Assembly: GCA_016180645.1 (NCBI GenBank)
Contig: JACPAV010000002.1
Coordinates: forward strand, 174,628-238,627
DNA from: Nitrospirota bacterium
GTDB lineage: Bacteria; JACPQY01
Length of the DNA stretch: 64,000 bases
Direction of reading: 5' to 3'
Part shown: positions 24,111 to 56,075 of the stretch, piece after piece
How the letters are laid out: each line of letters opens with the position of its first letter
Numbering within the stretch: position 1 is the first letter of the stretch
Notes under the pieces: model-generated
What the model saw: only the letters and a program-made list of their open reading frames with translations
What the model was told of the DNA's origin: nothing
Databases searched by the model: none
Translations under genes and position numbers: made by a program

Positions 24111-25148
24111 TCATAGCCGGCGATACTCGACCATGAGGGCATCCACGATCTTGCGGGGGTGCCAGTGCTGAACCATGAACTCCCGCGAGTTCCTTCCGGT
24201 TTCCATGCGATGGTCCCCATCCGAGATCAGCCGCCCGAGCACGGTTTCAAGCTCGGCCGAATCCCCCGCGGCCAGCCAAGGCAGTGCATCGGTTCCCGCA
24301 AACCGCGCCGCCTCCGAGCGGGTCCTCTCCGCCAGACGGGCAATGGTGGGGGTGCCTTGGCTCAAAGCTTCGAGCGACGACACGCCGAAGTATCCCTGCA
24401 AATGATCGAAAAAGATGTGGCAGTTTCGCTTCCGCTCCAGGCACTCGGAGTGGGGGACGTTTTCAATGAGGTCGAGGTCCAGGAAACCGTTGTATCGGGC
24501 CTTGAGACCCGCGTAGACGCGCACCAGGAGTTCGGTGTCCTTGATCTCCTTCTTGGTCGGCGACTGACCGATTCTTACTCGTGACTCGTGAGTCGCGACT
24601 CGTGACTCGTGGGGAAGGTAGAGTGGATCGTCGATGGGAACGAGATTGGGTATCCACGTGGCCTCCGGAAGAAAATCCAAGAGGTCCGGCGTGCTGACCA
24701 GAAATGTTCTTCGAGAACTCTGCGCGCGGAATCGAGCCGGATCGGATCGAAGGGGCTCGCCATGTTGATGGTAGATCGCCCTTTTCCCCTTCATGAAATC
24801 CTTGGCCCTGAAAGGACCCAGAGGCGTTTCCTCATCGGCAAAGGCGTGAAAGTGAAAGAGATCGGCATCGCGGAGAACCTGTTCGATCTCCTCCACGTTC
24901 GAGGTTCGATGACCTCCACGAAGGGGGAAATGCCGCGGGAGGGCAGGAGCCCGGAGCGGCCGTTCGACATCCGACGATTCCGGAACATGGATGTCCTTCC
25001 TGTAGTTGAAGTTGTATTTGACGGCCGTGGTCACCAGACGGCAGGAATGTTCGGTGTGACGGTTGATCGCATCGGTGAAGGCGATCCCCATCCCGGCGGG
25101 ATCATTGGTGCAAATCATGAGGATGCGCATCCCAATTCCCCTCGGCAC
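24111..25148 (-). CDS. glycosyltransferase-like protein carrying an in-frame heptanucleotide repeat
   Basis: C-terminal SSLEALSQGTPTIA region resembles a GT-B donor-binding motif; contains HESRVATHESRV encoded by the tandem heptamer array. Confidence 0.5.
   Translation of the reverse strand: MPRGIGMRILMICTNDPAGMGIAFTDAINRHTEHSCRLVTTAVKYNFNYRKDIHVPESSDVERPLRAPALPRHFPLRGGHRTSNVEEIEQVLRDADLFHFHAFADEETPLGPFRAKDFMKGKRAIYHQHGEPLRSDPARFRAQSSRRTFLVSTPDLLDFLPEATWIPNLVPIDDPLYLPHESRVATHESRVRIGQSPTKKEIKDTELLVRVYAGLKARYNGFLDLDLIENVPHSECLERKRNCHIFFDHLQGYFGVSSLEALSQGTPTIARLAERTRSEAARFAGTDALPWLAAGDSAELETVLGRLISDGDHRMETGRNSREFMVQHWHPRKIVDALMVEYRRL
24577..24611. repeat. tandem heptanucleotide array (ACTCGTG x2, AGTCGCG, ACTCGTG x2) inside a coding region
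   Basis: Five adjacent 7-nt units read directly; central GAGTCGCGACTC is palindromic; encodes HESRVATHESRV in frame. Confidence 0.7.
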
Positions 25149-29983: not shown

Positions 29984-31817
29984 TTTCCAGCGGGGTGTCC
30001 TCAATATCGGAAAGCGCCTCCTCGATTCGGGGCGCCAGGATCTCGCAGCCATCCACAGCCTGGGAGACCCACTCCTCCAGTCGTTTGAGCGTATCCTCGT
30101 AATGAACCGTCCGCCCTCCGGCGCATCCCCTGACGCACCACTCGGCCACCAGAGATTCTCCCATGACGTGGTAGTTGAGTAGGAAGCTGGACGAAACGTA
30201 GTCGGAGATGTCGTCCAAGAGCGCCTCCACGAGGGCCTGCTCGCCGAACATCCCCGCCAATCGATGAATCGTGGTCTCGCCGCTCCGGTACCGCTGGACG
30301 CGTTCCATCTGTTCTTCCAGCAGCGGCCTGAGTTCCCGCACCCGAAACGCTTCGGCGCGCAACAGCTCCCTCAGCGCTCTCAGCTTGTCTCCATGCAACA
30401 GCGGCGACATCGTCCGACGGAAAAAGGATTTGTCCACCTTCCGCCCGAGATATCGGGGAGCGGCCTCTTCGAGCGGAACGTGCTGGAACCCCTCAATCCA
30501 GACGCCGTCGCCGGTGGCGTTGACAAGTGTAATGCCCCGGGCCGACGTCCGGGCGGCCAATTCGAACCAGTTGACCGTTTTCTCGAACTGCCTCCACGTG
30601 AGCACTTCGCCGCCCTTGTATCCCTTCACGGTGGTGAACTGGGGATCATCCTTCAGCGCCTTCGGGGGGGGCAAGGCATGCTCTCTCGAAACGCCCCGGG
30701 CGTGGGTCCGCCCGCCGGGAAAGGAGAGATCCTGCCCGGCCATGAGAATCCGATCGCATCCGAGCCGCATGGCAAAGCTGAAAGCCGTGGTGGACACGGA
30801 ATAGGCATGCGGCAACACGGCGTTGAATCCCGTCAGGTTGAAAAGCGGACGCTCGAAGGGGCTGGAGGATTCGACGTACAACCAGATCCGCGTGAGCGGG
30901 AGGTCGAACAACTTGGGGCACACCTTGAGGGGGAAGATCGCGGAAAGGGTTTCCGGAAGGTCCACCTCATCGAAGAAATCCGTCACATCGATCGCCTCAT
31001 CGCTGAAGACAAAGTCCGGGACCACTCCAGACCGTAGGAGGGGTTTGAGAGACGCATCCGTGGCCAGGAGGATCGCGCGTTCCTGCACCTCCTTCAAAAG
31101 CGGCAGATGACCGGCGAGGGACGGTCCCGCACCGATGATGATGGCCGGCAACCCCATCCCGCTCCCCTCCAATGCGGCCGCCATCGGGTATTCGACGACC
31201 CGATGGAGATTCAGGAGGTTGGTCCCCACCCATTCCCGTGCGCGGTTCTTCCAAATGCCGAGGCACATCCTCGAATTCTCGATGTCCACCGTGAAATTGG
31301 CGACAAGTTCCCGCACCTGCTCGGGGAAGAGGATCTCGTGCGCGGCGCCCACGAAAATTCTTCCCTCCAGCCCCAGCCGGAACCAGACGCGGAACGCCAG
31401 GGCCAATTCCTCCGATTTGCGGGTCAGGAACACGCGGTCCTGACGGAAGAGGTCCGAAAAGTCGTGGATCATCAGCGCGACTTTCAACAGGGGGAGTTCC
31501 GGTTCGAGAATGAGCAGGTCCTTTCCGGTCTCCCTCGATGCCTCCTTCAAATCGTAGCCGAGGCCGACTCCCATCATGACCACAACATCCACTCCCTCGC
31601 TCCTGAAGGCCATCCAGCGGGCCCGGGCCTCGGCCCCCGGATGTTCACGGCTGTGGAGAAGCACTCCCTTCCACGAGAGCGTCCACTGCCCGTTCGCGCT
31701 CTCCTCCAGGAGATGCAGCGGTGCTTCAGCTTCCTCAAGCTCCGCGGCCAGCTCCGGAAAGCGGGGCCGGAGGGCCGCCAGGTTCTTGTGAAGGCGCTCG
31801 AGGCTGGGCTTAAGCAT
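29949..31817 (-). CDS. Maf-like (motility-associated-factor / DUF115 type) putative nonulosonate transferase, paralog 1
   Basis: LPAIIIGAGPSLAGHL (GxGPSL) motif characteristic of Maf/MptE-like glycosyltransferases. Start set to ATG (MLKPSLERL) at 31817. Confidence 0.55.
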   Translation of the reverse strand: MLKPSLERLHKNLAALRPRFPELAAELEEAEAPLHLLEESANGQWTLSWKGVLLHSREHPGAEARARWMAFRSEGVDVVVMMGVGLGYDLKEASRETGKDLLILEPELPLLKVALMIHDFSDLFRQDRVFLTRKSEELALAFRVWFRLGLEGRIFVGAAHEILFPEQVRELVANFTVDIENSRMCLGIWKNRAREWVGTNLLNLHRVVEYPMAAALEGSGMGLPAIIIGAGPSLAGHLPLLKEVQERAILLATDASLKPLLRSGVVPDFVFSDEAIDVTDFFDEVDLPETLSAIFPLKVCPKLFDLPLTRIWLYVESSSPFERPLFNLTGFNAVLPHAYSVSTTAFSFAMRLGCDRILMAGQDLSFPGGRTHARGVSREHALPPPKALKDDPQFTTVKGYKGGEVLTWRQFEKTVNWFELAARTSARGITLVNATGDGVWIEGFQHVPLEEAAPRYLGRKVDKSFFRRTMSPLLHGDKLRALRELLRAEAFRVRELRPLLEEQMERVQRYRSGETTIHRLAGMFGEQALVEALLDDISDYVSSSFLLNYHVMGESLVAEWCVRGCAGGRTVHYEDTLKRLEEWVSQAVDGCEILAPRIEEALSDIEDTPLENEPLGRQPAAR

Positions 31818-32877
31818 ATCCGCCGCCCCTGAAGAGGGAGGCCTCCTTGAGAACGTCGCGCCATTGGGCGACGAAGCGGTCCATGGAAAACTGACTCTCA
31901 ACCGTCCGGCGCGCCTCCCCTCCCATCCTCGCCGCCTCTTCGGAAGAGTCGAGCAACTCGCGGAGGCGAGATCGTAGCGCGCCGACGTCCGACGTAATGT
32001 ATCCATTCACGCCGTTCCTGATCGGCGAGGACGTATTCCACGTCGAGAGGACCGGCGTGCCCGCGGCCATGGCCTCCAACATGCAAAGCGTGTACCCGTC
32101 CTCCAGCCCCTCCACGGTCGTGTTCACGAACAGACGCGCGCTTCGATAAATATCCTTCAGTTCATCGAACGACGAGGCCGATTCACTTTTCACGCCCTGG
32201 TCGTTATCCCCCACCACGCGGAGCGGAAATCCGTCGCAAATGGCCAGGAGGTCCCGCAGGCCCTCTTTCGCGCGGGAAAGGCCGTTGCACACCCTCAGCG
32301 CGCTCGCCACTTCGCCCGTGTGGTCGGGAAAATCGGAAATGTCGATGCCGTGCACAATCACGCGCGAGGGGCATCGCAGCCCCCAGTTCTTCCGCTTGAA
32401 CTCCGAGATAAAAACAAAGAAGACATTTCCGGATTTCAGGAAAAGCCTCTGCAGAGATCTCAGGAATTCCCGCTTCCGGAGGGCCTGGCCGAGAAGGTCC
32501 GTTTCGGAATAGGGGAACGCATTATGGAACACGAGCACTTTCCCGGAAGGGCTCGCGATGCACGCCAGGAGATCCTCCACATCGTGGCAAACGATCGCAT
32601 CATAGTAGGCGTCTCGGCTCCGTTCCTTCATGTCGCTCTCGGAGATCAGCCGGGCGTTGGGAGGAAGCGGGCGAAGTCGGGGATTCCACGCGCGCACGTA
32701 GCCCAAGCTGGGAATGTGCCGTTCGCAGATATCGAATTCGTGTCCCGTCCTTGCGAGGTTGCACAGATACGGTTCGTGCCGGCAGAAGGTCAGTATCCGG
32801 AGGGTTCGACGCGAGGCCCCGATGACGTTTCCATTCGTCGTCCCGGAAGCGAAGCGGAGGGGGCGCGTCGTACCCAT
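31810..32877 (-). CDS. glycosyltransferase, GT4-like
   Basis: CMLEAMAAGTPVLST motif. Start set to ATG (MGTTRPL) at 32877, adjacent to the upstream stop. Confidence 0.6.
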   Translation of the reverse strand: MGTTRPLRFASGTTNGNVIGASRRTLRILTFCRHEPYLCNLARTGHEFDICERHIPSLGYVRAWNPRLRPLPPNARLISESDMKERSRDAYYDAIVCHDVEDLLACIASPSGKVLVFHNAFPYSETDLLGQALRKREFLRSLQRLFLKSGNVFFVFISEFKRKNWGLRCPSRVIVHGIDISDFPDHTGEVASALRVCNGLSRAKEGLRDLLAICDGFPLRVVGDNDQGVKSESASSFDELKDIYRSARLFVNTTVEGLEDGYTLCMLEAMAAGTPVLSTWNTSSPIRNGVNGYITSDVGALRSRLRELLDSSEEAARMGGEARRTVESQFSMDRFVAQWRDVLKEASLFRGGGYA

Positions 32878-34204: not shown

Positions 34205-34225
34205 CCCCTCCTTACGAAGGAGGGG
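34205..34225 (-). other. intercistronic stem-loop CCCCTCCTT-ACG-AAGGAGGGG spanning the upstream stop codon
   Basis: Perfect 9-bp inverted repeat with 3-nt loop; contains the TAA stop of the 944-aa gene and lies about 15 nt upstream of the SD of the next gene; one arm is itself SD-like. Confidence 0.4.
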
Positions 34226-37046
34226 AACCTCCTTCGTCCAGCCGGCGAGGAAAGACATCTGCCCCCTCCTCCCCTTTGTGCGGGGAGGCCGGGGGGGGTG
34301 GAGCTTCCGAGACTCGAACCAAGAGCCTCCGCGCGCCCCCGTGCCCCGGGTTCAGGGCCAGGAGCCGCTTGATTTCATCCATGCAGTCGGTTTCCTGCCC
34401 CGTTTCGGAAAGGAAAAGGATCAGGAGGTACCGGACCTCGTAGTCGGCGGCATGGAGGGCCAGGTAGTTCCTCAGGTGGCGAAGGGCCTCGCGCTTGTGT
34501 TCCATGGAAGCGGCACACGAGGCGAGGCCGATGACCGCCCGGCGATGATCACCGTTCCCGTCGATGAGGCCGCAGAAAATATCGCGGGCTCGGGCGTGGT
34601 CTTTCAGTTGAACCCGGAGCGCTGCAATTTCAACCAGCCGATCCGGGTCGCTCCCGGCTTCGCGGGCCAACTCGTCGACTTCGTGAGATACCTTGCCGGC
34701 GCCTTCCGACACGATCCTCACCTGAAGCAGCCCCACGCGACCGGCGAAGGATTCAGGGTCCACCGCGAGGAGGGATTCGAAGGCCCGCGCCGCTTCGTCC
34801 ATCCTCGCCGCCGCCAGCTTGCCCTCTCCGAGCAGCAAGTAGTACTCGCATAGCCGTCGCTCATGCAGCGAGAAGCGGGAGGAGACATGGGAAAGCACCT
34901 GAAAGGCCTTCGCAAGTTTCTTGGAACCCAGCAGGGCTCGCACCAGGGCCAGGTGGGATTCCGGCTTAGTTTCGTCGAGTCGAACGGCTTCCTCGAACTT
35001 CTTGGCCGCCTCATCCCACTGGGCCGAGTCCAGATGGGCTCGGCCTTCCGAGAGCAGGCGGGCAATGACCTGCTGCCTCGGGCGCGCCCGGAGGAGGTAC
35101 TGGAACGTCCTCATTTCATCGGCTGCGTTTTCCGCGTCGCTCCGCAGCTCCGCGGCAACCTTCTGAAGGCCCGGCAGGATGGCGTGCGGCGGCGTGGTAC
35201 GCGCGCCCATTTCCTCGATCACCCAGCCGGTGGTTTCGAACAGGCTCCGAATTTCCTGGAGCGTGAAAAATCGCACGTGGTCCCGATCCAGAATCCCCTC
35301 CTCCGCGTAGGACCATCGTCCGGACAGGAGTTGGCCGATCACGGACCAGTGGCCGACGTTCGGGACACTGGATACGACGCACCCCTGGGGCGTGAGCCGG
35401 GCCTGAAGGCCTTCGAGCAGGCCCCACGGGTCGTCAAGGTGCTCCAACACGTCGGACAGAACGATACAATCGAAGGTCTCGTCGCCCAGCGTCTTCGGGT
35501 CCCGCGCGTCCCCCGTGATCACCCGGTCCAATCGGCGCGCGGCCTCTGCCGCTGCTTCTTCCACCATCTCCACTCCCGTGATATGGACCCACGGTCGTCG
35601 GGTTTTCAGGTACGCACCGAAGCCGCCGGTGGCGCATCCGACATCGAGGATCCGTTCGGCCTCCCGCGGGATGAGCGGCTCGACTTCTTCCCTCGAATGC
35701 GAGTAGTAAACGAATGACCTCCCGCGAAAACTGCGGGTCTCCATCATCCCCATGGCCAGATGGGCCGTCCGCTCCGCCGCCTTGCCGTCGTCCATGTAAT
35801 TCAGTTCGTAGATGGAACGAGGACGCTTCAGCTCGAACTCCTGCGCGAGGGCGGCATCGTACAGTACGCGCCGTATCGCCTCGGCCAGGCCCGGAGCGTC
35901 CGTCACCTGGAGCACCGGATCGTGCGGCTGAAAAAGGGGATCGTGATAGCGCACGACCGGGAGGTTGATCACCGGTTTGCCGCACAAGATGCCGGCGACC
36001 CCCAGGAGGGAGTCCGCGCACACGACGGCATCCGAAACGTAGACGATGGGCTCGGGGTTCGCATCTCTTTCCACGATGCGGACGCGGGCCACTCCGGCCG
36101 AATCCGCCTTCCGGCGATACCACTCCTTTCCCTTCTGATCCGAGGGATGCAGCTTCACCAACCAGTCGCAGGATTCCGACTCCAAAGCCCGCGCCGCCTG
36201 GAGGAAGAGATCGTAGGCGCGCTCGACGAGAGCCGGGTCCGAGTGCGTGGACAGGCCGTGGGTCCAGGTCGAACAGTAGAGAACGATTTTCCGATCCGGC
36301 TGGAGATCGAACTTCTGCCGGAGAGCCGCCGCCCGTCCGCTGTTCCGTAGAGAATGATAGACGTCCCAGTAGGGGGCGCCGGTCACCACGATATTCTTAG
36401 GATCGTTTCCCCACCGAAGATACCACTGCCGGGTCCGCTCCCCCTGCACGGCGATCCGGTCCGCCCAGATCCGATCGTGGGCGTTGTGGAAAAGCGCCCC
36501 CATGCCGTGGAGCATGTGGAGCACGGGGATACCCCGTTTCCTGAAGAAGAGCGCGAGGGTCTTTCCATCGAGTAGGACGTCTTCCCAAAGGAGGGCGAGT
36601 TGGGGGCGATATCGCTGGACGGCCTGGTCGAGCATTTCAACCAGCAGAATTTGCTCCCGGATGCGTTCCCGCTTGAAGTGTTCCGCCGCCAATTGGGCGG
36701 CCACAACCCACGGTTCGGGCCAACCGAGATTCGTGGGCCAGAATCCGGGGAGTGGACGTTTCTCGTAGTCGTCCAAGATGCCCGCCATGGAAGGATTGAG
36801 CGACGCCTCGCGCACGTCCTTTTCCAGCTCGGGGACAACGGACACGCAATCCACTCCCACCTTCGTGAGCGTGGAAAAGATGTTTTCGCCGTAGACGAGA
36901 TAGGTGCTCGGACGGATCCGCTCGATTTCCTGGATCACCGGCAGGTACGCCGTGCCCACATAGGTGAAGATGGCGGGCTTGTCAACCACGGGTCGCCTCG
37001 CGTGGGGGGGGGGAAGAAATGGGAACAAGCTTGGAAAAGACGGCAA
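34212..37046 (-). CDS. multidomain protein: TagF-like (HP motif) transferase domain + class I SAM methyltransferase + TPR repeats
   Basis: CSTWTHG and LVKLHPSDQ resemble CDP-glycerol glycerophosphotransferase motifs; RILDVGCATGGFGAYL methyltransferase motif I; C-terminal TPR-like helical repeats; 944 aa. Start uncertain; G10 tract near 5-prime end. Confidence 0.5.
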   Translation of the reverse strand: MPSFPSLFPFLPPPHARRPVVDKPAIFTYVGTAYLPVIQEIERIRPSTYLVYGENIFSTLTKVGVDCVSVVPELEKDVREASLNPSMAGILDDYEKRPLPGFWPTNLGWPEPWVVAAQLAAEHFKRERIREQILLVEMLDQAVQRYRPQLALLWEDVLLDGKTLALFFRKRGIPVLHMLHGMGALFHNAHDRIWADRIAVQGERTRQWYLRWGNDPKNIVVTGAPYWDVYHSLRNSGRAAALRQKFDLQPDRKIVLYCSTWTHGLSTHSDPALVERAYDLFLQAARALESESCDWLVKLHPSDQKGKEWYRRKADSAGVARVRIVERDANPEPIVYVSDAVVCADSLLGVAGILCGKPVINLPVVRYHDPLFQPHDPVLQVTDAPGLAEAIRRVLYDAALAQEFELKRPRSIYELNYMDDGKAAERTAHLAMGMMETRSFRGRSFVYYSHSREEVEPLIPREAERILDVGCATGGFGAYLKTRRPWVHITGVEMVEEAAAEAARRLDRVITGDARDPKTLGDETFDCIVLSDVLEHLDDPWGLLEGLQARLTPQGCVVSSVPNVGHWSVIGQLLSGRWSYAEEGILDRDHVRFFTLQEIRSLFETTGWVIEEMGARTTPPHAILPGLQKVAAELRSDAENAADEMRTFQYLLRARPRQQVIARLLSEGRAHLDSAQWDEAAKKFEEAVRLDETKPESHLALVRALLGSKKLAKAFQVLSHVSSRFSLHERRLCEYYLLLGEGKLAAARMDEAARAFESLLAVDPESFAGRVGLLQVRIVSEGAGKVSHEVDELAREAGSDPDRLVEIAALRVQLKDHARARDIFCGLIDGNGDHRRAVIGLASCAASMEHKREALRHLRNYLALHAADYEVRYLLILFLSETGQETDCMDEIKRLLALNPGHGGARRLLVRVSEAPPPPASPHKGEEGADVFPRRLDEGGSPPS

Positions 37047-37209
37047 TCAATTCCTGTAGCAGGTCGTATTCAAGCGTGGCGGCCAGCGGGACGCCCTTGT
37101 ACGTAAGCGAACGCGCCACCGCGGGGTCCGTGCTCCACGCCAGGAGGTACTCATCCACCGTGAGGTCCAGCCGGCACCCCGTGCAGAGCGGCATCTCCTT
37201 CCACATCAT
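36982..37209 (-). CDS. small zinc-ribbon-like protein, paralog B (5-prime end possibly disrupted)
   Basis: Homologous by eye to the 40109-40351 ORF (shared CxxC...CxxC, W, LEY, KL positions). Only the second CxxC lies after the first ATG at 37209; the first knuckle is upstream with no canonical start and abuts the heptamer arrays. Confidence 0.3.
   Translation of the reverse strand: MMWKEMPLCTGCRLDLTVDEYLLAWSTDPAVARSLTYKGVPLAATLEYDLLQELIAVFSKLVPISSPPPREATRG
37004..37013. repeat. homopolymeric G10 tract (C10 on coding strand) in the 5-prime region of the TagF-like/MTase/TPR gene
   Basis: Read directly; encodes the PPP of FPFLPPPHARR. Confidence 0.6.
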
Positions 37210-37250
37210 TTCCGCGGTCCGGTGGTGACACCAGCCACAGGAAGGGCTGA

Positions 37251-37313
37251 GTGCCGAGTGCCGAGTGCCGAGTTTCTCGGACTCAGGACTCGGGACTCGG
37301 GACTCGGGACTTT
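37251..37313. repeat. twin heptanucleotide tandem arrays: (GTGCCGA)x3 and (GGACTCG)x4 flanking GTTTCTC
   Basis: Read directly; immediately downstream of the PIG-L stop. The two arrays are imperfect inverted copies of each other. Confidence 0.7.
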
Positions 37314-37319
37314 CGTTGC

Positions 37320-38003
37320 TCACTGTTCGATGCTCCTCACCAGCACGAATGCCTCTGCCGCGCCCAGCCCACAGTGGATGCCCCACTTCTTCGCATAAAC
37401 ACGCAACGATTCCGGCGACCGGGGATGGCCGTTGGCGCCGACCTCGCCCCGGTACTGCAAGAAGGCGTGAATCTTGGTTTCCAAAGTCCGGGAAATATCG
37501 CTGAAGGCGTTCGGCGTGAACGTGTTCTGCGCCCCGTAGATGTTCCACTCGGTCGAAGAGGGCGTTTCAAACGCGAAGATCCTTCTTACGGTTTCCCCGT
37601 GAATCGGCCGGAAGGCGGTCAACACAGCCTGATAGGTAATGCGGTGGTCCACGTTCAGGTCTCCCCAGAAATGGGTGTAGACGACTTCAGGGCGAAACTG
37701 TTTCTTGATCCGTTCAATGGTCTTGACCATGTCGAGGAGAGACATCGTATCGAAACGATTGTCGGGCAGGCCGAGGAAATGCACCCGCTCCACCCCCAGA
37801 ATGTCCGCGCTCCGGCGGCAGTACGTTCGAAGCGCCGAGACCAGCCGCTTGGGTGCGTGTTCCCGTCGTTCGAATCGCGCCGTGGCGCCTTCTCCCAGGA
37901 TGACCGTGTGGATCCGGTGCCCCTTGCGGGCCAGGCGGGCCATGGTGCCGCCGCAGCCAAGCACTTCATCATCCGGATGGGCGGCAACGACCAATACATT
38001 CAT
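37320..38003 (-). CDS. PIG-L/LmbE family N-acetyl-sugar deacetylase
   Basis: MNVLVVAAHPDDEVLGCGGT with the HPDDE zinc-binding motif; ATGA overlap with upstream gene; 227 aa. Confidence 0.7.
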   Translation of the reverse strand: MNVLVVAAHPDDEVLGCGGTMARLARKGHRIHTVILGEGATARFERREHAPKRLVSALRTYCRRSADILGVERVHFLGLPDNRFDTMSLLDMVKTIERIKKQFRPEVVYTHFWGDLNVDHRITYQAVLTAFRPIHGETVRRIFAFETPSSTEWNIYGAQNTFTPNAFSDISRTLETKIHAFLQYRGEVGANGHPRSPESLRVYAKKWGIHCGLGAAEAFVLVRSIEQ

Positions 38004-38752
38004 GCGGACACTCCCGATCGGATGATTTCCAGCGCCCGCGGACCCTCGTTGAGCATCAGATCGATGACAGACATGTTCGGAATGAAGGGATCGAAGCCTT
38101 GCCGATACGTAGGGTGCTGATAGTCTTGAAAAATAACCGCAATTTTCTCCCTATTGAAGGCCTCAAGGTCCATGTAGAGCCGTCCATGGGTACCCGCGTA
38201 GTATGTATCAGCTTGGAAATGCTTGCAGATCGAGACAAGCCGATGTGTGGCTAGTTCCTTTACATTCAATCGGTCGGTTGGACCGATTGAATCGGTCGAT
38301 CGGACCGATTCGATCGATCGATCGGTCAGTCTCAAGTCTGAACTCCTATACGTTCGAGGGGTAAGATTCATGCATCGAGAGACAACCTCGATAGACTTGA
38401 GACAGAGCAGGGACAGGTTCGAGCCTGACTCGGCGTAGATCGAACCGATGGGGGCTTCATACTCGGAGTAGAACGGGGCCTTCCTGTAGTTTGACTCGAT
38501 CGCTTTCAGGTGCTTCCGCCGCCAGGGCGAGCGCTCGTCCGTTTGGGTTTCGTTGATGGTTTGTCCGAAGTGGTGCTGGACCGGCACGGTGAGCCATTGC
38601 CATCCCTCGGCCGTGCGGATCTTGTTCCGGTTCTGCCAATCGTTCTTCGTGTATTGCACATCGTCGAGAAACACGAACACATCGGCACGGTCCATCTTCT
38701 CGAAATACCCGAGCCACGGGAGGTACTGCGGCTGGTGGATGGAGACGATCAT
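38000..38752 (-). CDS. WbqC-like family protein, paralog 1
   Basis: MIVSIHQPQYLPWLGYFEKMDRADVFVFLDDVQY matches the WbqC-like N-terminus. Start set to ATG at 38752 (ATGA overlap); carries an about 19-aa in-frame insertion relative to paralog 2. Confidence 0.65.
   Translation of the reverse strand: MIVSIHQPQYLPWLGYFEKMDRADVFVFLDDVQYTKNDWQNRNKIRTAEGWQWLTVPVQHHFGQTINETQTDERSPWRRKHLKAIESNYRKAPFYSEYEAPIGSIYAESGSNLSLLCLKSIEVVSRCMNLTPRTYRSSDLRLTDRSIESVRSTDSIGPTDRLNVKELATHRLVSICKHFQADTYYAGTHGRLYMDLEAFNREKIAVIFQDYQHPTYRQGFDPFIPNMSVIDLMLNEGPRALEIIRSGVSA
38265..38330. repeat. array of alternating-orientation 8-mers GACCGATT/AATCGGTC forming overlapping perfect palindromes, in frame inside WbqC-like paralog 1
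   Basis: CAATCGGTC-GGTTG-GACCGATTG, GACCGATT-G-AATCGGTC, AATCGGTC-GATCG-GACCGATT and GACCGA-TCGATCGATCGA-TCGGTC read directly; encodes TDRSIESVRSTDSIGPTDR. Confidence 0.7.
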
Positions 38753-40122
38753 GGGAGTGGCAAGTGGTGAGTGGCGAACGGCGAGTCGAGGGGGCCACGG
38801 CTCGGTTCTTTTGGCCCTTCGCTCGTCGCTCCTCGCTCGCTCCTCGTTGCTCGTTGCTCGTTGCTCGTTGCTGTCATGGCGTCCACCAACGCGCACACCC
38901 GGTCCGTGGCGCGTCCGTCGTTCAAGGCATTGAGGGTCAGGAGATCCGCCTCTCTCAACATCTCCTCCTCCATCGTCCTCGGTGCGCGAAGGGCCTCCAT
39001 GGTTTTCCGAAAGACCTCTTCCTCAGTGCGCGCTTTGAGGATCGAGGCCGCATCATTGAAGATCGTCTCCGGCACATGGAGCGAGAGCGACATAACCCGG
39101 GCGCCGTAGATCAGCGCCTCGACGGCCATCGTCGATTGAAAGCAAATCACCACGTCCGACGCCCTGAGCAGCGGCGCCAGCGCGGGCGCCAAGGAAAGGT
39201 GTCGCGGGTAGGTCGAGTGGACCCGGAGACCCTCGGCTTGAGCCAGCGCCTCATACTCTTTGTCCGCATAGGGATCGGAGGGATGGGGTTTCAAAACCAA
39301 CTGGAAGGCCCGGGCCTTTTGGGCCCGAGCGAGCGCGCGGAACGTATCGGCCATGACGTCTCCCGGCCGATAGGAATGCTCCCGGAGGTACAGACCGCTC
39401 CGCCACGTGGTGGCCAGACACACCACGGGGAGACCGCTCTGCAGCCCGATCTCGCGCAACGCCCTCGACTTCTCCCATTCGCCGCGGAGGCGGTAGTGCA
39501 GGTCCATGACGACCGATCCCGTGACGGCCAATCGATCTTCCGCCACGCCCGCCCGCCGGTACCAATTCCGGCAGCGCTCCCCGAACACAGACATGATGTC
39601 CGCATACACACGGTCATGCAGATTGGCCAGTCCGGGCAGCCCATGCGCGAGGCAGAGGCTGGGAACGCCATAGGCCCTCGCCAATTGAATCGCCACCCGC
39701 TGGAGGGGCCGGACGTCGTTGTCCACCATCAGCAGGCCCAATCCGCCCTCGACCGCCATTCTCTTGACGGCCACCGCAATGCCCAGCATCTGGCGGCTCA
39801 GGTTGGAGAACCGTGGCGCGAGACTCTCGTAGATTTTCACATCGGCGTATCCCCGCTCGGACAAGGCCGCCTCGAAGCCCATCGCCAAGCGGGCGCAGTC
39901 CTCCGGACTCTTCTCCAGGACGTAGCGGTCGATCGCCGCCAAGTCGCCCGGATCGAACAACGTCTCCAGGGAGGCCACGCTCCCCCCCCCCGATTTCCGG
40001 ATGAAATCGTAGGTCGTCGGGTTCACCACGAGGTCGTGCCGGGATGCCAATCTCCGGCAGAGGTGCTCATACCTCTGGTTCAGCAGCGCGAGAATTCGGA
40101 CCGGCACGTCAGGACCCTCCAT
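38749..40122 (-). CDS. TagF-like (CDP-glycerol glycerophosphotransferase-type, HP motif) putative transferase, paralog 1
   Basis: VVCLATTWRSG (PTWR-like) and QLVLKPHPSDP motifs; 457 aa. The C-terminal about 45 aa is encoded by heptamer arrays and may not be native; G10 tract near 5-prime end. Confidence 0.5.
   Translation of the reverse strand: MEGPDVPVRILALLNQRYEHLCRRLASRHDLVVNPTTYDFIRKSGGGSVASLETLFDPGDLAAIDRYVLEKSPEDCARLAMGFEAALSERGYADVKIYESLAPRFSNLSRQMLGIAVAVKRMAVEGGLGLLMVDNDVRPLQRVAIQLARAYGVPSLCLAHGLPGLANLHDRVYADIMSVFGERCRNWYRRAGVAEDRLAVTGSVVMDLHYRLRGEWEKSRALREIGLQSGLPVVCLATTWRSGLYLREHSYRPGDVMADTFRALARAQKARAFQLVLKPHPSDPYADKEYEALAQAEGLRVHSTYPRHLSLAPALAPLLRASDVVICFQSTMAVEALIYGARVMSLSLHVPETIFNDAASILKARTEEEVFRKTMEALRAPRTMEEEMLREADLLTLNALNDGRATDRVCALVDAMTATSNEQRATRSERGATSEGPKEPSRGPLDSPFATHHLPLP
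38755..38873. repeat. two heptanucleotide arrays (GAGTGGC-like x3-4 and GCTCGTT x4 exact plus degenerate copies) at the TagF-like/WbqC junction
   Basis: GCTCGTTGCTCGTTGCTCGTTGCTCGTT read directly at about 38847-38873; degenerate units extend upstream to about 38821; second array at about 38755-38790 directly upstream of the WbqC ATG. Confidence 0.7.
39982..39991. repeat. homopolymeric C10 tract (G10 on coding strand) in the 5-prime region of TagF-like paralog 1
   Basis: Read directly; encodes the GGG of IRKSGGGSVAS. Confidence 0.6.
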
Positions 40123-40351
40123 CCGGCGGGGAGAAGCGCGCCCCCAACTTCTCCATCGTCAACATGAAGATCTCGTACTCCAAGGCCCCCGCGAAGCTCT
40201 CCCCATCCCAGCGAAGGATGTCTTCCGCGGCTTCGCTCGCGCTCCATTCCGACAGCGCCGCGAGGACCTCCTGGTCGGTATGGCAGAGTTCACACACGGT
40301 GCCGTTCAGGCGCGACCCTCCAAGACCGCAGCGTTCGCACCTATCCTGCAT
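40109..40351 (-). CDS. small zinc-ribbon protein, paralog A
   Basis: MQDRCERCGLGGSRLNGTVCELC with two CxxC knuckles; 80 aa; lies between WbqC-like paralog 2 and TagF-like paralog 1. Confidence 0.4.
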   Translation of the reverse strand: MQDRCERCGLGGSRLNGTVCELCHTDQEVLAALSEWSASEAAEDILRWDGESFAGALEYEIFMLTMEKLGARFSPPDGGS

Positions 40352-41117
40352 GGCCTGCCGCCTCCCATGCGCTCTGCGTCGGGGCCCGACGCGCCTCAGA
40401 AGCCCGAAATGCGGGCCTCCGACCGGAACGAAGGATCTCCAGGCTCGCGGGACCGCAGTTCAGGAGCAGGTCCACCGCCGAGAGGTGTGAAACGAAGCCC
40501 TCGAATCGTTGGGGATAGACGGGGTGATCGTAGTGGTGGAAGCGCAATCGGACCCCCGAGTCCGAAAAGATTTCGGAATGTTGAAGATACGCTCGCGCGC
40601 CAAGCGGGGAGAGGTACTCATCCGCCCCCAGGCTCTCGCAAATGGAGACAAGGTAGTCCACCCGGTCCACTTGCTCCACGTCCAACTCGGAAGCCCGGAT
40701 GAACGGCGTGCGAATTCCCAACCGCGCCGCCAGCGCTTCCACAAGCGGAATCGTCACCTCCACCAAGCGGTCTTCCTCCGACCGTGCAAGCAGCGTGGAG
40801 AGAAGGGCATCGCCATGATCCCTCCACGACTCCGCGCGGCGATAGGCAACTTCGATCGATCGCGCGTGCCGGCGGATCCATTTCCCCTGAACGATCCTCG
40901 CCTCGCGGAGGGATTGGCCCAGCGGGTCCTTCCGCGTGAGCGGCAGCGTCAGCCAGCACCAGCCTTGGTCGGTTCGGATGCGGTTCCGGTGATGCCACGA
41001 ATGCCGCACGCGCTGCACCGTGTCCAGAAACACGAAGGTGTCGACCTGGTCGATCATGTCGAAATATCCAAGCCAGGGCAGGTAGTGCGGTTGGATGATG
41101 GCCACCGTCTTTCTCAT
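40341..41117 (-). CDS. WbqC-like family protein, paralog 2
   Basis: MRKTVAIIQPHYLPWLGYFDMIDQVDTFVFLDTVQ; start set to ATG at 41117. Confidence 0.65.
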   Translation of the reverse strand: MRKTVAIIQPHYLPWLGYFDMIDQVDTFVFLDTVQRVRHSWHHRNRIRTDQGWCWLTLPLTRKDPLGQSLREARIVQGKWIRRHARSIEVAYRRAESWRDHGDALLSTLLARSEEDRLVEVTIPLVEALAARLGIRTPFIRASELDVEQVDRVDYLVSICESLGADEYLSPLGARAYLQHSEIFSDSGVRLRFHHYDHPVYPQRFEGFVSHLSAVDLLLNCGPASLEILRSGRRPAFRASEARRAPTQSAWEAAGHAG

Positions 41118-41154
41118 CACCCGGCTCCCCTGTCGCATGACACCTGACGCATGA

Positions 41155-41844
41155 CTATTTTCGCCCCTCCACCAGCCAGTCCGAATCGGTCCGACCCGGC
41201 GCGCTTCCCACCTTCGCATATCCGATAAACCGCTGACGAAACCCGGCCGTCAGCGCATCGACGGCCGCCGCGTCGACAAACGTCACCGACATCCCCTCCT
41301 CACCGGTCTCGTTCGAATTCATGAGAAAGCAATGGGGAGCCAGCTCCCGCCCCCGCCCGTATCGGGAGTCATCCGTTCCCCGCAACGAGAAGAAGGCCCA
41401 CCCCCCCGGTTTCAAGAGTCGACGAATTTCCATGATGCCCGCGGCGGTCTCCTCGGGCCTGCCGTAGTAGAGGACGCCATAGCAGATGACCGCATCGAAG
41501 GCGTCCGACTTGAGAGGCACGTCCAGGAAGGTGCCCACGGCCAGCCGCCCGGGACTCCTCTCCGTTCGGATGCATCGGCGCAGGGAACGTCTCGCTCCAT
41601 CGATCCCGACGACGTCGAATCCTTCTCTTTTCAGCATCACGAGGTGCCGTCCTCCGCCGCATCCGAGGTCCAGAACGCGCTTCGGCCGCCGACGATTCCA
41701 AGAGCGAACGAGCCTCCGAGATACGAACCGGACGACATGATCGACAGGGTAGCGGGGGACCTTGTCGAGATTCTCCCGCGCGTAGAAGATTTCCCAGGGA
41801 GTGCCGGTGTTGTTCCTCTCTTGAACCGGTGTGGCGATCCCCAT
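41155..41844 (-). CDS. class I SAM-dependent methyltransferase
   Basis: RVLDLGCGGGRH motif I and DAVICYGVLYY; start set to ATG (MGIATPV) at 41844. Confidence 0.6.
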   Translation of the reverse strand: MGIATPVQERNNTGTPWEIFYARENLDKVPRYPVDHVVRFVSRRLVRSWNRRRPKRVLDLGCGGGRHLVMLKREGFDVVGIDGARRSLRRCIRTERSPGRLAVGTFLDVPLKSDAFDAVICYGVLYYGRPEETAAGIMEIRRLLKPGGWAFFSLRGTDDSRYGRGRELAPHCFLMNSNETGEEGMSVTFVDAAAVDALTAGFRQRFIGYAKVGSAPGRTDSDWLVEGRK

Positions 41845-43005: not shown

Positions 43006-43704
43006 TCACCTGTTATACTCCTCGTAGACTTCGAGCCGCAGGTAGTAACGCTTTCCGTTCACCTCGACGAATGCATTGTCATACGGCGGAAACGTGAGGG
43101 CCCGGAGCCGATTGATGAGATCGGCGCCCCGATACGTTCGATCCAAATCAATTCGCATCAGCTCCCAGAACTCCTGATCCCGATGGTAGGTGCCCTCGCC
43201 GGAAGAAACGTCCAGCGGATTCCCCTCCCCGGATCGAATCAAGGGCCAGTGCTCCCGGAAGAGGTCGAATCCGGCGGCCTCAAGTTTCTCGTAGAGAGAT
43301 TTCCCCGTGTCGCTGAATTCAACCGCCACGCGACGTCGAGCGAAGATCGGCCCGCTGTCCACGCGACGGACCATCTTGTGAATGGAAACGCCCGCCGGCG
43401 TATTGTCGAGGATGCTCCACGCGTTGGTGTAAGTCCCCCGATTATGCGGCAGGTAGGACGTGTGCACATTGATGCATCCCAGCGGTGGCATCTCCAGATA
43501 CTTGGGCGGCACGAGAAATCGGAATCCGCAACTCACCACCAGGTCGGGCCTGAGTCGGCGGAGAAGAGGCAGTTGTTCCCGGCGCGTCAATACACAGGCA
43601 ATCTGCTCCCCTTGCTCCGCCAGCCAGCCGAGAATTCGGCTCCCGAGCCCGTTCAGGCCCAGAAAAACAAGAGTGGGGCCGGATTTGGGAGACGGACTAC
43701 GCAT
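43006..43704 (-). CDS. formyltransferase (Fmt/ArnA N-domain family)
   Basis: VVSCGFRFLVPPKYLEMPPLGCINVHTSYLPHNRG matches the formyl-transferase HxSLLPxxRG region; start set to ATG (MRSPSPK) at 43704. Confidence 0.6.
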   Translation of the reverse strand: MRSPSPKSGPTLVFLGLNGLGSRILGWLAEQGEQIACVLTRREQLPLLRRLRPDLVVSCGFRFLVPPKYLEMPPLGCINVHTSYLPHNRGTYTNAWSILDNTPAGVSIHKMVRRVDSGPIFARRRVAVEFSDTGKSLYEKLEAAGFDLFREHWPLIRSGEGNPLDVSSGEGTYHRDQEFWELMRIDLDRTYRGADLINRLRALTFPPYDNAFVEVNGKRYYLRLEVYEEYNR

Positions 43705-44716
43705 GACCGGCCACCCCGGAGGAAGTCTCCAGATGTTCGGCCACCCGTTCGACCCCACGGCCGTCCAGCCGGAACCGACCTGTCTCGCTGATCCTTCTTC
43801 GCAGCGTCGCCGATCGAACAAGTTCATCCAGCCGTTCCGGCACCGAGTTTTCATTGCCGGCGCGAAGCGCCAGACCTTGCTTGTCCATCGCATCCAGGAA
43901 AATGGAATGGCCCGGCGTGGGATCGACCAATACGGCGGGCACGCCCATGGTAGCCAGCTCGTACATCGTTACGCCGACTGCTCCCACGGCCGCGTCTGCC
44001 CGCAGGACGAGAGGAACGATGGAGACCACATTTCGGATCGTCTTCACATTTCCGGGAAGGCTCCGATCCCGATTCAGAGTCCCGCGATAACCGGGGCCCA
44101 GGAGGGATACAAATCGGACGCGCGCAAAGCGCCGGGCCAGTACCGGCACGAGCCGGCCTGCCATGTCCTGCGGGTCGCTCCCCCCGAAGGTCACCAGCAC
44201 CTGCCGCACGTTTTTTCGCAGACGATAACGAGGTCGAGCCCGCGCCCACTGGGGCTTCAGCAGGGCATATCGAAGACCCATCAATCGAACTTGACGGCGT
44301 TTGCGCACGATTTCATCGCGCCAGAGCACGTGGCCGTTTACCAGAACATCGGCCGGCGTACAGTCCGCGTCCCAGTCGTCGATCACCACCAATCGCCCGA
44401 CCTTCTCGCCCCACGCACTCAGGAGCCTCTCGTCCCTCCGGGGAATGTCAACGACCAAAGTCTCCACCCGGTCCCGTCGGATCGCGGCGCCCAGCGAGGT
44501 CTGGTTCCTCAGCCGGGTGAAGCGCGGAGCGGCCGCGGCAAAGAACCGTGCGGCCAGAAGGTCATGCTCCGAATAGAAACGAACCCCTCGGCCCCGCCGG
44601 ACACACACCTCCGCAAGGGCCAGCGCGCGCGAAACGTGTCCGAATCCTATGCGCGGCCCGGCCTGGACGTAGAAGCCCAGGGTCCCTCCGCGCGCGTCAT
44701 CGGCTGAGAATCGCAT
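43697..44716 (-). CDS. PseG-like UDP-sugar hydrolase (MurG-like GT-B fold)
   Basis: N-terminal GFGHVSRALALAE (GxGHxxR) typical of PseG; C-terminal GT28-like domain; 339 aa. Confidence 0.6.
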   Translation of the reverse strand: MRFSADDARGGTLGFYVQAGPRIGFGHVSRALALAEVCVRRGRGVRFYSEHDLLAARFFAAAAPRFTRLRNQTSLGAAIRRDRVETLVVDIPRRDERLLSAWGEKVGRLVVIDDWDADCTPADVLVNGHVLWRDEIVRKRRQVRLMGLRYALLKPQWARARPRYRLRKNVRQVLVTFGGSDPQDMAGRLVPVLARRFARVRFVSLLGPGYRGTLNRDRSLPGNVKTIRNVVSIVPLVLRADAAVGAVGVTMYELATMGVPAVLVDPTPGHSIFLDAMDKQGLALRAGNENSVPERLDELVRSATLRRRISETGRFRLDGRGVERVAEHLETSSGVAGHA

Positions 44717-56053: not shown

Positions 56054-56060
56054 CACGCTT
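55981..56060. repeat. 14-mer direct repeat (TAAAGAGTGATGAG / TAAAGGGTGATGAG) plus inverted GTGATGAG/CTCATCAC copies at the TatT start
   Basis: Read directly; spans the start codon and signal-peptide region of the TatT-like gene and the gap before purS. Confidence 0.5.
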
Positions 56061-56075
56061 CACCCATCTCGCCGC

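What the first reader, a model, noticed from the sequence alone, without database searches (positions are those of the whole stretch)
36982..41117. Duplicated three-gene module: WbqC-like protein, small CxxC...CxxC zinc-ribbon ORF, TagF-like HP-motif transferase
Two tandem copies of the same arrangement occur. Copy 2 is WbqC-like (40341-41117), small Zn-ribbon ORF A (40109-40351) and TagF-like paralog 1 (38749-40122). Copy 1 is WbqC-like (38000-38752), PIG-L deacetylase, small ORF B (36982-37209) and a TagF-like/MTase/TPR fusion (34212-37046). The two small ORFs align by eye (both CxxC knuckles, conserved W, LEY and KL positions), so they are true paralogs rather than chance ORFs. Copy B appears to have lost a canonical start upstream of its first CxxC, next to the heptamer arrays. 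A conserved small zinc-ribbon partner for TagF-like enzymes is not something I recognise as described.
Basis: partly seen in the sequence, partly recalled or inferred. Interest (0 to 1): 0.6.

Follow-up and report, generated by a model that had tools for sequence, protein, structure and literature searches.

The report
Small zinc-ribbon partner of TagF-like transferases
Two small genes in a flagellin sugar-decoration gene cluster of an uncultured Nitrospirae bacterium are real, related members of an undescribed protein family that always sits directly in front of a TagF-like sugar transferase gene, so each probably encodes a dedicated helper subunit of that enzyme.

Summary
The window, from a Nitrospirae MAG, carries two diverged copies of WbqC, a small CxxC…CxxC ORF and a TagF-like HP-motif GT-B enzyme. 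They lie inside a pseudaminic-acid-type, Maf-containing flagellin glycosylation island.

In every locus recovered, the gene lies immediately upstream of a TagF-like gene, usually with overlapping stop and start codons. A-type always pairs with the short transferase and B-type with the TagF/MTase/TPR fusion. WbqC is not obligatory. In two distant loci only the C-terminal helical domain survives, fused to the end of the preceding enzyme (one of these matches is weak).

Copy B has not lost its start. An in-frame GTG overlaps the PIG-L stop codon.

My best reading is a dedicated protein-binding subunit or adaptor of the transferase. This is inferred from synteny and is untested. The family is new but narrow, so interest is moderate.

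The parts
40109..40351 (-). Small ORF A (80 aa, HYT87_00940). It has an N-terminal 4-Cys zinc ribbon (C5xxC8…C20xxC23) and a C-terminal helical domain with invariant D26, W36, E58 and Y59.
   Evidence: ORF; identical to P0002. GGGAGG lies 9 nt upstream of the ATG, which overlaps the WbqC2 stop region by 11 nt. Family alignment. AF2 model has mean pLDDT 82.8.
36982..37323 (-). Small ORF B, 113 aa from GTG 37323. The conserved core runs from the first knuckle at 37239 to the stop codon at 36984-36982. NCBI calls only 36982-37209.
   Evidence: The first knuckle is conserved as CSWC, CEWC or CSWC in L001, L002, L003 and L006. dN/dS is 0.16-0.38. Sequence is identical in the separate assembly L015.
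38749..40122 (-). TagF-like HP-motif GT-B enzyme, paralog 1 (HYT87_00935). The start is ATG 40122 or GTG 40107. The last ~40 aa are encoded by heptamer arrays, and the stop overlaps the WbqC1 start (ATGA).
   Evidence: KPHPSD motif and invariant columns. NCBIfam BFO_1060 scores 47 bits, below its cutoff. Best PDB profile hit is Cps3D, a TagF-like polymerase.
34212..36989 (-). TagF-like / SAM-methyltransferase / TPR fusion. TagF-like domain about 35670-36989, methyltransferase about 35214-35669, TPR about 34407-35051.
   Evidence: Pfam. Paralogy to TagF1. Start inferred from relatives and the L015 gene call.
40341..41117 (-). WbqC-like protein, copy 2.
   Evidence: PF08889, 220 bits.
38000..38752 (-). 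WbqC-like protein, copy 1. It carries an in-frame 22-nt tandem-repeat insertion at 38264-38325.
   Evidence: PF08889, 255 bits.
37320..38003 (-). PIG-L/LmbE-family de-N-acetylase.
   Evidence: PF02585, 100 bits. 76-90% identical in L001, L003 and L006.
41155..41844 (-). SAM-dependent methyltransferase that heads the module. The same gene precedes WbqC2 in L003 and L012.
37249..37311 (.). Two heptamer arrays (GAGTGCC x3.6 and GGACTCG x4.7, plus strand) between the PIG-L stop and the first knuckle of small ORF B. They are translated if the GTG at 37323 is used.
38755..38872 (.). Heptamer arrays between the conserved end of TagF1 and the WbqC1 start. They are read through as the TagF1 tail.
37004..37013 (-). 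C10 homopolymer in the C-terminal tail of small ORF B, just upstream of the fusion's GTG start. Losing one C would fuse small ORF B in frame to the TagF-like fusion.
   Evidence: identical length in L015.

Best explanation
Small ORFs A and B are genuine, paralogous protein-coding genes of an undescribed family. Each protein has an N-terminal four-cysteine zinc ribbon followed by a ~45-residue helical domain with an invariant W…G…(L/F)EY(D/E) signature.

Each is co-transcribed with, and in most loci translationally coupled to, the TagF-like HP-motif GT-B enzyme immediately downstream. Each has co-duplicated and co-diverged with that enzyme: A-type goes with the ~450-aa enzyme, and B-type with the TagF/methyltransferase/TPR fusion.

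The most likely mechanism is a dedicated, stoichiometric protein-binding subunit of the cognate transferase, acting as an adaptor or assembly/activation factor. The helical domain would be the docking element. The zinc ribbon would be a structural cap or a second interaction surface.

The transferases themselves most likely use a cytidine-nucleotide-activated donor. In this island that donor is the CMP-activated pseudaminic-acid-type sugar made next door. They would extend or decorate the flagellin glycan started by the Maf enzymes.

Shown: gene reality, paralogy, purifying selection, strict adjacency, coupling, and the absence of known relatives.
Inferred: physical binding, zinc binding, the donor substrate, and the effect on activity.
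For: Paralogy.

Coding selection: dN/dS 0.16-0.38, with the cysteines conserved.

Rarity and specificity:
- Word-indexed searches of 5.8 billion clusters found 4 and then 7 proteins, with no new members in the second search.
- A full HMMER pass over 1.84 billion representatives found only about 8 small family members plus one fusion.

Synteny. The family domain is the last thing encoded before a TagF-like gene in the window (twice), L001, L002, L003/4/5 (twice each), L006, L007, L008, L009, L010 and L011. In L007 the contig ends before the downstream gene.

Coupling. Stop and start overlap or abut (ATGA, GTGA, TAATG, TGAGTG, TGAcGTG, GTGGTTGA) at 8 of 10 junctions.

Type pairing is consistent: A with TagF1-type and B with fusion-type.

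WbqC is absent in L008, L009 and L010, so the linkage is to the transferase.

In L009 and L010 only the helical domain remains. It is fused to the C-terminus of the enzyme encoded just upstream of the TagF-like gene. This identifies the helical domain as the essential part and suggests a tethering role.

The proteins are mostly acidic, with pI 4.3-6.3 in 8 of 9. This argues against nucleic-acid binding.

The AF2 model is compact, with mean pLDDT 82.8.

Evidence on the transferase:
- Conserved K(P/L)HPSD motif and a TWR motif aligning to the TagF family's APTWR.
- Pfam Glyphos_transf and Capsule_synth above cutoff for the fusion.
- BFO_1060 nonulosonic-acid transferase family as best NCBIfam hit, below its cutoff (PMC5420450).
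- Top fold hit is a polysialyltransferase (weak).

Island context: PseB equivalog at 474 bits, PseC-like, PseG-like and NeuB/PseI-like genes, a cytidylyltransferase and Maf genes.
Against: - There is no direct evidence of a complex.
- In L003 and L006 the B-type gene is separated from the fusion by 113 and 44 nt, so coupling is not universal.
- In L009 only the first of three tandem TagF-like genes has the domain upstream, so the enzymes do not universally need it.
- The fusions in L009 and L010 are to the upstream enzyme, not to the transferase. By Rosetta-stone logic, this could mean the partner is the upstream enzyme.
- The L010 match is weak (14 bits).
- The TagF1 structural model is poor (pLDDT 61).
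- Assignment of TagF1 to any curated family is below threshold.
Confidence: 0.55

Rival explanations
1. Acceptor-targeting adaptor. The small protein binds flagellin, or a flagellin chaperone or export component, rather than the enzyme. It would present the acceptor to the TagF-like transferase, much as TPR or C-terminal domains do in other flagellin glycosyltransferases.
For: The island is a flagellin glycosylation island with Maf genes. L010 has a flagellin gene 3 kb upstream. The B-type partner already carries a TPR protein-interaction domain. The small proteins are acidic and helical.
Against: A/B type pairing follows the enzyme paralog, not any acceptor. Two different adaptors for one acceptor is less economical. 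Nothing links the family to flagellin beyond the island context. No fold similarity to FliS-type chaperones was found.
Confidence: 0.15
2. Regulatory element. A zinc-ribbon protein that binds RNA or DNA, or an upstream ORF whose translation mainly serves to couple and control translation of the transferase gene.
For: Stop/start overlaps occur at most junctions. Zinc ribbons are common in nucleic-acid-binding proteins; the only PDB sequence matches, all non-significant, are ribosomal zinc-ribbon proteins. Heptamer arrays and a C10 tract flank small ORF B, which could modulate expression.
Against: The proteins are acidic. The amino-acid sequence of the helical domain, not merely an open frame, is conserved, with dN/dS around 0.2. 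The domain persists fused to enzymes without the ribbon. The family is duplicated in parallel with the enzymes.
Confidence: 0.08
3. Substrate or carrier. The small protein is itself modified by the neighbouring transferase, like a glycosylated peptide (glycocin-like), or it carries an intermediate.
For: It is a small Cys-containing helical protein next to a glycosyltransferase. The length and helical content superficially recall carrier proteins.
Against: There is no conserved Ser/Thr at a fixed position in the loop or helix; the position before LEY is A, T, A or V. The cysteines form CxxC knuckles rather than nested disulfides. No leader peptide is evident. No Pfam carrier-protein or bacteriocin match. 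No fold match.
Confidence: 0.05
4. Spurious ORFs. These are chance open frames in GC-rich spacer DNA and not genes.
For: The genome is about 62% GC, so long chance ORFs abound. Gene callers disagree on the starts.
Against: Significant paralogy. Homologs with purifying selection occur in several separate metagenome assemblies. The AF2 fold is confident from only 11 sequences.
Confidence: 0.02

Closest known systems
TagF-like multi-domain capsule polymerases (for example Cps3D, PDB 8qoy) and TagF/TarL teichoic acid polymerases (PF04464 Glyphos_transf)
   Same: Both have a GT-B C-terminal domain with an HP motif and an APTWR-like motif. Cps3D is the best PDB sequence hit (E=2e-5 to 1e-4). As in those capsule polymerases, one paralog here is fused to a TPR domain (the TPR architecture of capsule polymerases is from my own knowledge).
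   Different: Similarity is marginal and local, about 50 residues. Paralog 1 does not reach any Pfam threshold. No CDP-glycerol or CDP-ribitol synthesis gene was seen in the part of the island I annotated. The context is flagellin nonulosonic-acid glycosylation, not wall or capsule polymers. No small zinc-ribbon partner is annotated for those enzymes, to my knowledge.
Tannerella forsythia nonulosonic-acid derivative transferases (Tanf_01245 / TFUB4_00887 / BFO_1060; NCBIfam NF046086; PMC5420450)
   Same: This is the best NCBIfam match for both paralogs (47-49 bits). Both are GT-B enzymes with TagB/TagF-like features and an HP motif, sit next to a CMP-Pse/Leg pathway, and lack a predicted classical sialyltransferase family assignment.
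   Different: Scores are far below the 200-bit family cutoff. The D/E-D/E-G motif is not present as such here, where the conserved motif is (E/N)-D-V. The acceptor there is an S-layer O-glycan. No small partner is reported in the passages I read.
Small dedicated helper proteins of biosynthetic enzymes, such as MbtH-like proteins for NRPS adenylation domains and DesVIII/EryCII-type auxiliaries for GT-B glycosyltransferases (own knowledge)
   Same: This is a working analogy only. A small or auxiliary protein is encoded beside its enzyme, duplicated along with it, and needed for folding or activity rather than for chemistry.
   Different: There is no sequence or fold relationship. DesVIII-type auxiliaries are P450-like and large. 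MbtH-like proteins have no zinc ribbon. The helper role here is untested.
Maf/PseD-type flagellin nonulosonic-acid glycosyltransferases
   Same: They are encoded in the same island at 28121-32006 (PF01973 and PF20157; FlagModPseD) and presumably act in the same pathway.
   Different: The fold family is unrelated to the TagF-like enzymes. No small-ORF linkage was seen with the Maf genes.

Membership tests
Zinc ribbon (four-Cys, two-knuckle) | Two CxxC knuckles separated by a short beta-hairpin spacer and conserved across homologs | tested here: met
   CxxC-x(9-15)-CxxC occurs in every stand-alone member once gene starts are corrected. The AF2 model shows short strands around both knuckles, with block-mean pLDDT of 80-89 across them.
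Zinc ribbon (four-Cys, two-knuckle) | Binds one Zn(II) through the four cysteines | not testable with these tools
   Needs metal analysis of purified protein.
TagF / Glyphos_transf (PF04464) | Reaches the Pfam gathering score | tested here: inconclusive
   The fusion scores 25.4 bits against a 22.1 cutoff, over about 130 residues. Paralog 1 has no hit and matches only Epimerase_2 below cutoff. The two are paralogs.
TagF / Glyphos_transf (PF04464) | Conserved C-domain motifs (APTWR-like, HP) | tested here: met
   ATTWRSGL / CSTWTHGL aligns to YAPTWR of Cps3D and TagF. K(P/L)HPSD is invariant.
TagF / Glyphos_transf (PF04464) | Uses a CDP-alditol donor to make phosphodiester polymers | not testable with these tools
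   No CDP-glycerol or CDP-ribitol synthesis gene was seen among the genes I annotated. The window was not exhaustively annotated.
Capsule_synth (KpsC/KpsS, PF05159) | Reaches the Pfam gathering score | tested here: inconclusive
   The fusion scores 30.6 bits against a 20 cutoff, but covers only profile positions 161-261 of 310. Paralog 1 has no hit.
BFO_1060-type nonulosonic-acid transferases (NF046086) | Reaches the NCBIfam cutoff (200 bits) | tested here: not met
   47.4 and 48.6 bits.
Bacterial sialyltransferase-type motifs | HP motif and D/E-D/E-G motif | tested here: inconclusive
   HP is present. D/E-D/E-G is absent as written; the conserved motif is (E/N)-D-V at columns 135-137. Motif definitions are from PMC5420450.
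WbqC-like (PF08889) | Full-length Pfam match above cutoff | tested here: met
   255.5 and 220.3 bits against a 21.3 cutoff, covering profile positions 1-217 of 218.
PIG-L / LmbE deacetylase (PF02585) | Full-length Pfam match above cutoff | tested here: met
   100 bits against a 28.2 cutoff.
Any described small-protein family (Pfam, NCBIfam, PDB) | Sequence or fold match for the small ORFs | tested here: not met

The most novel reading that the evidence does not exclude
The zinc-ribbon/helical protein is an obligate activating or specificity subunit of a new class of cytidine-nucleotide-dependent GT-B transferases that extend flagellin nonulosonic-acid glycans. It would be an MbtH-like principle applied to glycosyltransferases. 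Its helical domain would be a portable docking module that can also be fused to tailoring enzymes such as methyltransferases, assembling a multi-enzyme glycan-tailoring complex.
Probability: 0.3. Interest if true: 0.55.

Novelty: new variant of a known kind. Interest (0 to 1): 0.42.

Why it matters
Transferases for pseudaminic- and legionaminic-type sugars are poorly known, and in vitro reconstitution often fails. If these TagF-like enzymes need a small co-translated partner, co-expressing it would be a practical key to obtaining active enzyme.

It would also define a new accessory-protein family, and a portable docking domain, for glycan-tailoring machinery.

There is an annotation lesson too. 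Gene callers clipped the first zinc knuckle in at least four loci, because heptamer repeat arrays precede the gene.

The impact is limited by the very narrow distribution: a handful of uncultured lineages, at least some from groundwater metagenomes.

Tried and rejected
- JGI metagenome contig scans with the TagF-like alignment and the B-type small-protein alignment found no relatives. The mixed A/B alignment had no stretch conserved enough to scan with.
- The species-representative genome scan gave a single locus, L010.
- The third word-indexed homolog search added no new members.
I re-aligned with trimmed rows.
- The AFDB fold library was unavailable, so fold comparison was limited to the PDB. 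That gave only generic helical or zinc-ribbon noise.
- The TagF1 model was poor (pLDDT 61). Its fold hits (polysialyltransferase, 2-epimerases, other GT-B enzymes; E≥2e-3, TM about 0.2) support only 'GT-B-like'.
- Literature searches for WbqC, for 'zinc ribbon' with 'flagellin glycosylation', and for 'TagF-like' with 'nonulosonic' returned nothing useful.
- I considered an acyl-carrier-protein-like reading of the helical domain. I rejected it because no Ser is conserved before the LEY motif and there is no Pfam or fold match.
- I considered that the small protein supplies a missing piece of the GT-B N-domain. The low-confidence model already shows five strands in the N-domain, so there is no support for this.
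- I considered C10 slippage or an assembly error creating an artificial split between small ORF B and the fusion. I rejected it as the default because relatives keep separate genes and a second assembly has the same C10. That assembly may come from the same or a related sample.
- The promoter/terminator scan found no internal sigma-70-like promoter and only weak intragenic terminator-like hits. This is consistent with one operon but is not proof.

Full report
**1. What is in the window**

All genes in the region are on the minus strand. The window is about 60-63% GC with uniformly negative GC skew.

Reading 5'→3' on that strand, the genes are:
- a SAM methyltransferase, 41844-41155
- WbqC-like copy 2, 41117-40341
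- small ORF A, 40351-40109
- TagF-like paralog 1, 40122-38749
- WbqC-like copy 1, 38752-38000
- a PIG-L deacetylase, 38003-37320
- small ORF B, 37323-36982
- a TagF-like/methyltransferase/TPR fusion, 36989-34212

Pfam confirms both WbqC copies (220 and 255 bits), PIG-L (100 bits), and the methyltransferase and TPR parts of the fusion. For the fusion's N-terminal domain it gives Capsule_synth (30.6 bits, cutoff 20) and Glyphos_transf (25.4 bits, cutoff 22.1).

The three duplicated components are each paralogous:
- WbqC: 36% identity, E=2e-50.
- TagF-like: 29% identity, E=5e-26.
- Small ORFs: 31% identity over 61 residues, E=9e-7.

HMMs of the small family and of the TagF-like family each find exactly two copies in the six-frame translation of the 64-kb window.

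**2. Corrected gene models**

Small ORF A starts at ATG 40351. GGGAGG lies 9 nt upstream, and the ATG overlaps the end of WbqC2.

That call cuts off the first knuckle, CGWC, at 37239-37228.
- The frame stays open upstream through two heptamer arrays to a GTG at 37323-37321.
- This GTG overlaps the PIG-L stop codon (GTGA) and has GAGGAG 9 nt upstream.
- Copy B therefore has a canonical start. Its product would be 113 aa, with a repeat-encoded N-terminal extension.

The first knuckle is conserved at the protein level in every B-type relative (CSWC, CSWC, CEWC, CSWC).
- L001 has an ATG six codons upstream of it.
- L003 has an ATG nine codons upstream.
- L006 has an ATG 29 codons upstream, again across heptamer repeats.
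- Gene callers clipped the first knuckle in the window, L002, L006 and L011.

The fusion most likely starts at GTG 36989, overlapping the stop of small ORF B (GTGGTTGA). Relatives start MKPVIFTYVG with an ATGA overlap, and the gene call in L015 uses this GTG.

**3. The small ORFs are real genes of a tiny, undescribed family**

Database searches:
- A word-indexed profile search of 5.8 billion protein clusters returned only the two window proteins and two close B-type homologs.
- A full HMMER pass over 1.84 billion representatives returned eight small proteins: P0001, P0004, P0009 and P0010 are B-type, and P0011, P0013 and P0020 are A-type. It also returned one 434-aa methyltransferase, P0018, carrying only the C-terminal helical part. 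The remaining hits were large repetitive proteins.
- A third search with all members added nothing new.

The family alignment shows CxxC-x(9-15)-CxxC-xx-D, then W, L and G, then (L/F)EY(D/E). D26, W36, E58 and Y59 are invariant.

A-type and B-type profiles align over 68 columns, including both knuckles, with probability 96.7% and E=4.2e-10.

Codon-level comparison of B-type genes gives dN/dS of 0.16-0.38. This indicates purifying selection on the protein.

There is no hit in Pfam or NCBIfam. The best PDB profile E-value is 0.2, to generic ribosomal zinc ribbons.

The proteins are mostly acidic, with pI 4.3-6.3 in eight of nine.

**4. Linkage to the TagF-like gene**

Contigs encoding homologs were fetched and compared.

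- L003, L004 and L005 repeat the whole duplicated arrangement at about 54% identity for TagF1: NeuB, cytidylyltransferase, MTase, an unannotated gene, hexapeptide transferase, DegT, MTase, WbqC, small A, TagF1, WbqC, PIG-L, small B, fusion. The duplication therefore predates that divergence.
- L006 has TagF1, WbqC, PIG-L, small B and the fusion.
- L001 and L002 have PIG-L, small B and the fusion.
- L007 and L011 have WbqC followed by small A, and L011 also has TagF1 downstream.
- L008 has a TagF-like C-terminus, an A-type small gene and a TagF-like N-terminus, with no WbqC.
- L009 (ENA) has NeuB, then a methyltransferase whose C-terminal 58 residues are the family's helical domain without the ribbon (64 bits). 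Three TagF-like genes follow.
- L010 is a Betaproteobacteria MAG and the only hit in the species-representative genome scan. It has flagellin, GT2-TPR, a 322-aa unknown protein ending in a weak match to the helical domain (14 bits; WVRHW…EYKG…AEYD), a TagF-like(HP)-GT2 fusion, PseB and PseC.

In every case the family domain is the last thing encoded before a TagF-like gene. The one exception is L007, where the contig ends first.

At 8 of 10 junctions the stop and start overlap or abut. The two exceptions are gaps of 113 and 44 nt.

A-type always precedes the TagF1-type enzyme, and B-type the fusion-type.

WbqC is therefore a lineage-specific neighbour, not part of the conserved unit. The zinc ribbon is dispensable in the most distant loci, but the helical domain is not.

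**5. What the TagF-like enzymes and the island are**

The island carries:
- a PseB equivalog (474 bits, above its cutoff)
- PseC-like, PseG-like and NeuB/PseI-like genes
- a CTP_transf_3 cytidylyltransferase
- an N-formyltransferase
- several methyltransferases
- two GT4-like glycosyltransferases
- two Maf/PseD-like flagellin glycosyltransferase genes

It is therefore a pseudaminic-acid-type flagellin glycosylation island.

Evidence on the TagF-like paralogs:
- They share invariant K(P/L)HPSD and a TWR motif that aligns to YAPTWR of TagF and Cps3D.
- Their best PDB sequence hit is the TagF-like capsule polymerase Cps3D (E=2e-5 to 1e-4).
- Their best NCBIfam hit is the BFO_1060 family, at 47-49 bits against a 200-bit cutoff. 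That family contains the Tannerella forsythia pseudaminic/legionaminic-acid derivative transferases, described as GT-B/TagB-like enzymes with an HP motif (PMC5420450).
- The D/E-D/E-G motif of sialyltransferases is not present as such. The conserved motif here is (E/N)-D-V.
- The AF2 model of TagF1 is poor (pLDDT 61). Its top Foldseek hit is a polysialyltransferase (E=2e-3), followed by 2-epimerases and other GT-B enzymes.

From established knowledge, HP-motif GT-B families (TagF, KpsC/KpsS, bacterial sialyltransferases) use cytidine-nucleotide-activated donors. The only such donor this island appears to make is the CMP-nonulosonic acid. I therefore infer that these enzymes transfer, or build on, that sugar after Maf has started the glycan. 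This is inference, not a membership claim.

**6. Mechanism**

The best-supported reading is that each small protein is a dedicated protein-binding subunit of its cognate transferase, made in fixed proportion by translational coupling. The helical domain would be the docking element.

The fused forms in L009 and L010 suggest that the same domain can tether the preceding tailoring enzyme to the transferase. The zinc ribbon may stabilise the small fold or offer a second contact.

I put this at about 0.55. Within that, gene reality and specific linkage are near-certain, while physical binding is about even odds.

Rivals are listed with their tests in the structured fields:
- a flagellin-directed adaptor (0.15)
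- a regulatory or coupling element (0.08)
- a modified substrate or carrier (0.05)
- spurious ORFs (0.02)

**7. Comparison with what is known, novelty and score**

The enzymes are 'TagF-like' in the loose sense. They do not pass any family threshold convincingly except for the fusion's partial Pfam hits.

The small proteins belong to no described family. As far as the libraries and the literature searches show, no small zinc-ribbon partner has been described for TagF-like, KpsC/S-like or nonulosonic-acid transferases.

Functionally the closest analogy is a small enzyme-dedicated helper such as MbtH-like proteins. That comparison rests on my own knowledge and implies no homology.

I rate this a new variant of a known kind: a glycosyltransferase operon with an accessory protein, inside a known type of glycosylation island.

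Interest is moderate at 0.42. The family is new and the linkage is clean. However, it is confined to a few uncultured lineages, at least some from groundwater metagenomes, and its function is untested.

Noticed in passing
window 37249-37311, 38755-38872, 41129-41155, 24577-24611, 55092-55121, 55980-56072; L001 480-515; L002 1-60 and 290-320; L006 1-26, 1280-1373, 2747-2827, 5890-5919: Short tandem arrays of 7-nt units sit at gene junctions in this lineage. ORFs read through them: they encode the TagF1 C-terminal tail and the small ORF B N-terminal extension. The same junctions carry arrays with different units in related contigs. The unit GCAACGA recurs at a different junction in L006. The more distant L003 has none at these junctions. 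Because 7 is not a multiple of 3, copy-number change would shift frames at coupled junctions. No length variation was observed.
   Followed up: partly
window 37004-37013: A C10 homopolymer lies in the tail of small ORF B, just upstream of the fusion's GTG start. Loss of one C would fuse small ORF B in frame to the TagF/MTase/TPR protein. The length is identical in Logan assembly L015. The tract is not conserved in relatives.
   Followed up: partly
window 38264-38325: A 22-nt tandem repeat (2.8 copies) lies inside WbqC copy 1. It encodes an insertion of about 21 aa (DRSIESVRSTDSIGPTDRLNVKE) that WbqC copy 2 lacks.
   Followed up: no
window 36982-37239; L002 55-348; L006 2878-3126; L011 129-377: Automatic gene calls start the small genes after the first CxxC knuckle in at least four loci. 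Database entries for this family (P0001, P0004, P0010, P0011) are therefore N-terminally truncated.
   Followed up: yes
L009 2199-7659: Three tandem TagF-like genes, two of them fused to methyltransferases, lack the HP motif: IKGRVSN replaces K(P/L)HPSD. Only the first has the helical domain encoded upstream.
   Followed up: no
window 25153-27099: The NeuB/PseI-like nonulosonic-acid synthase is fused to a C-terminal xylose-isomerase-like TIM-barrel domain (AP_endonuc_2).
   Followed up: no
window 43006-43893: A sugar N-formyltransferase (Formyl_trans_N plus N_formyltrans_C) lies between the PseG-like and PseC-like genes. No PseH-type acetyltransferase was seen among the island genes I annotated. 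This hints at an N-formylated pseudaminic-acid-type sugar. L003 has a hexapeptide acetyltransferase at that position instead.
   Followed up: no
window 28121-32006: Two adjacent large genes. One is a clear Maf/MptE-like flagellin glycosyltransferase. The other is a 643-aa protein with no family hit that looks Maf-like by eye only. As listed, the two ORFs overlap by about 100 nt.
   Followed up: no
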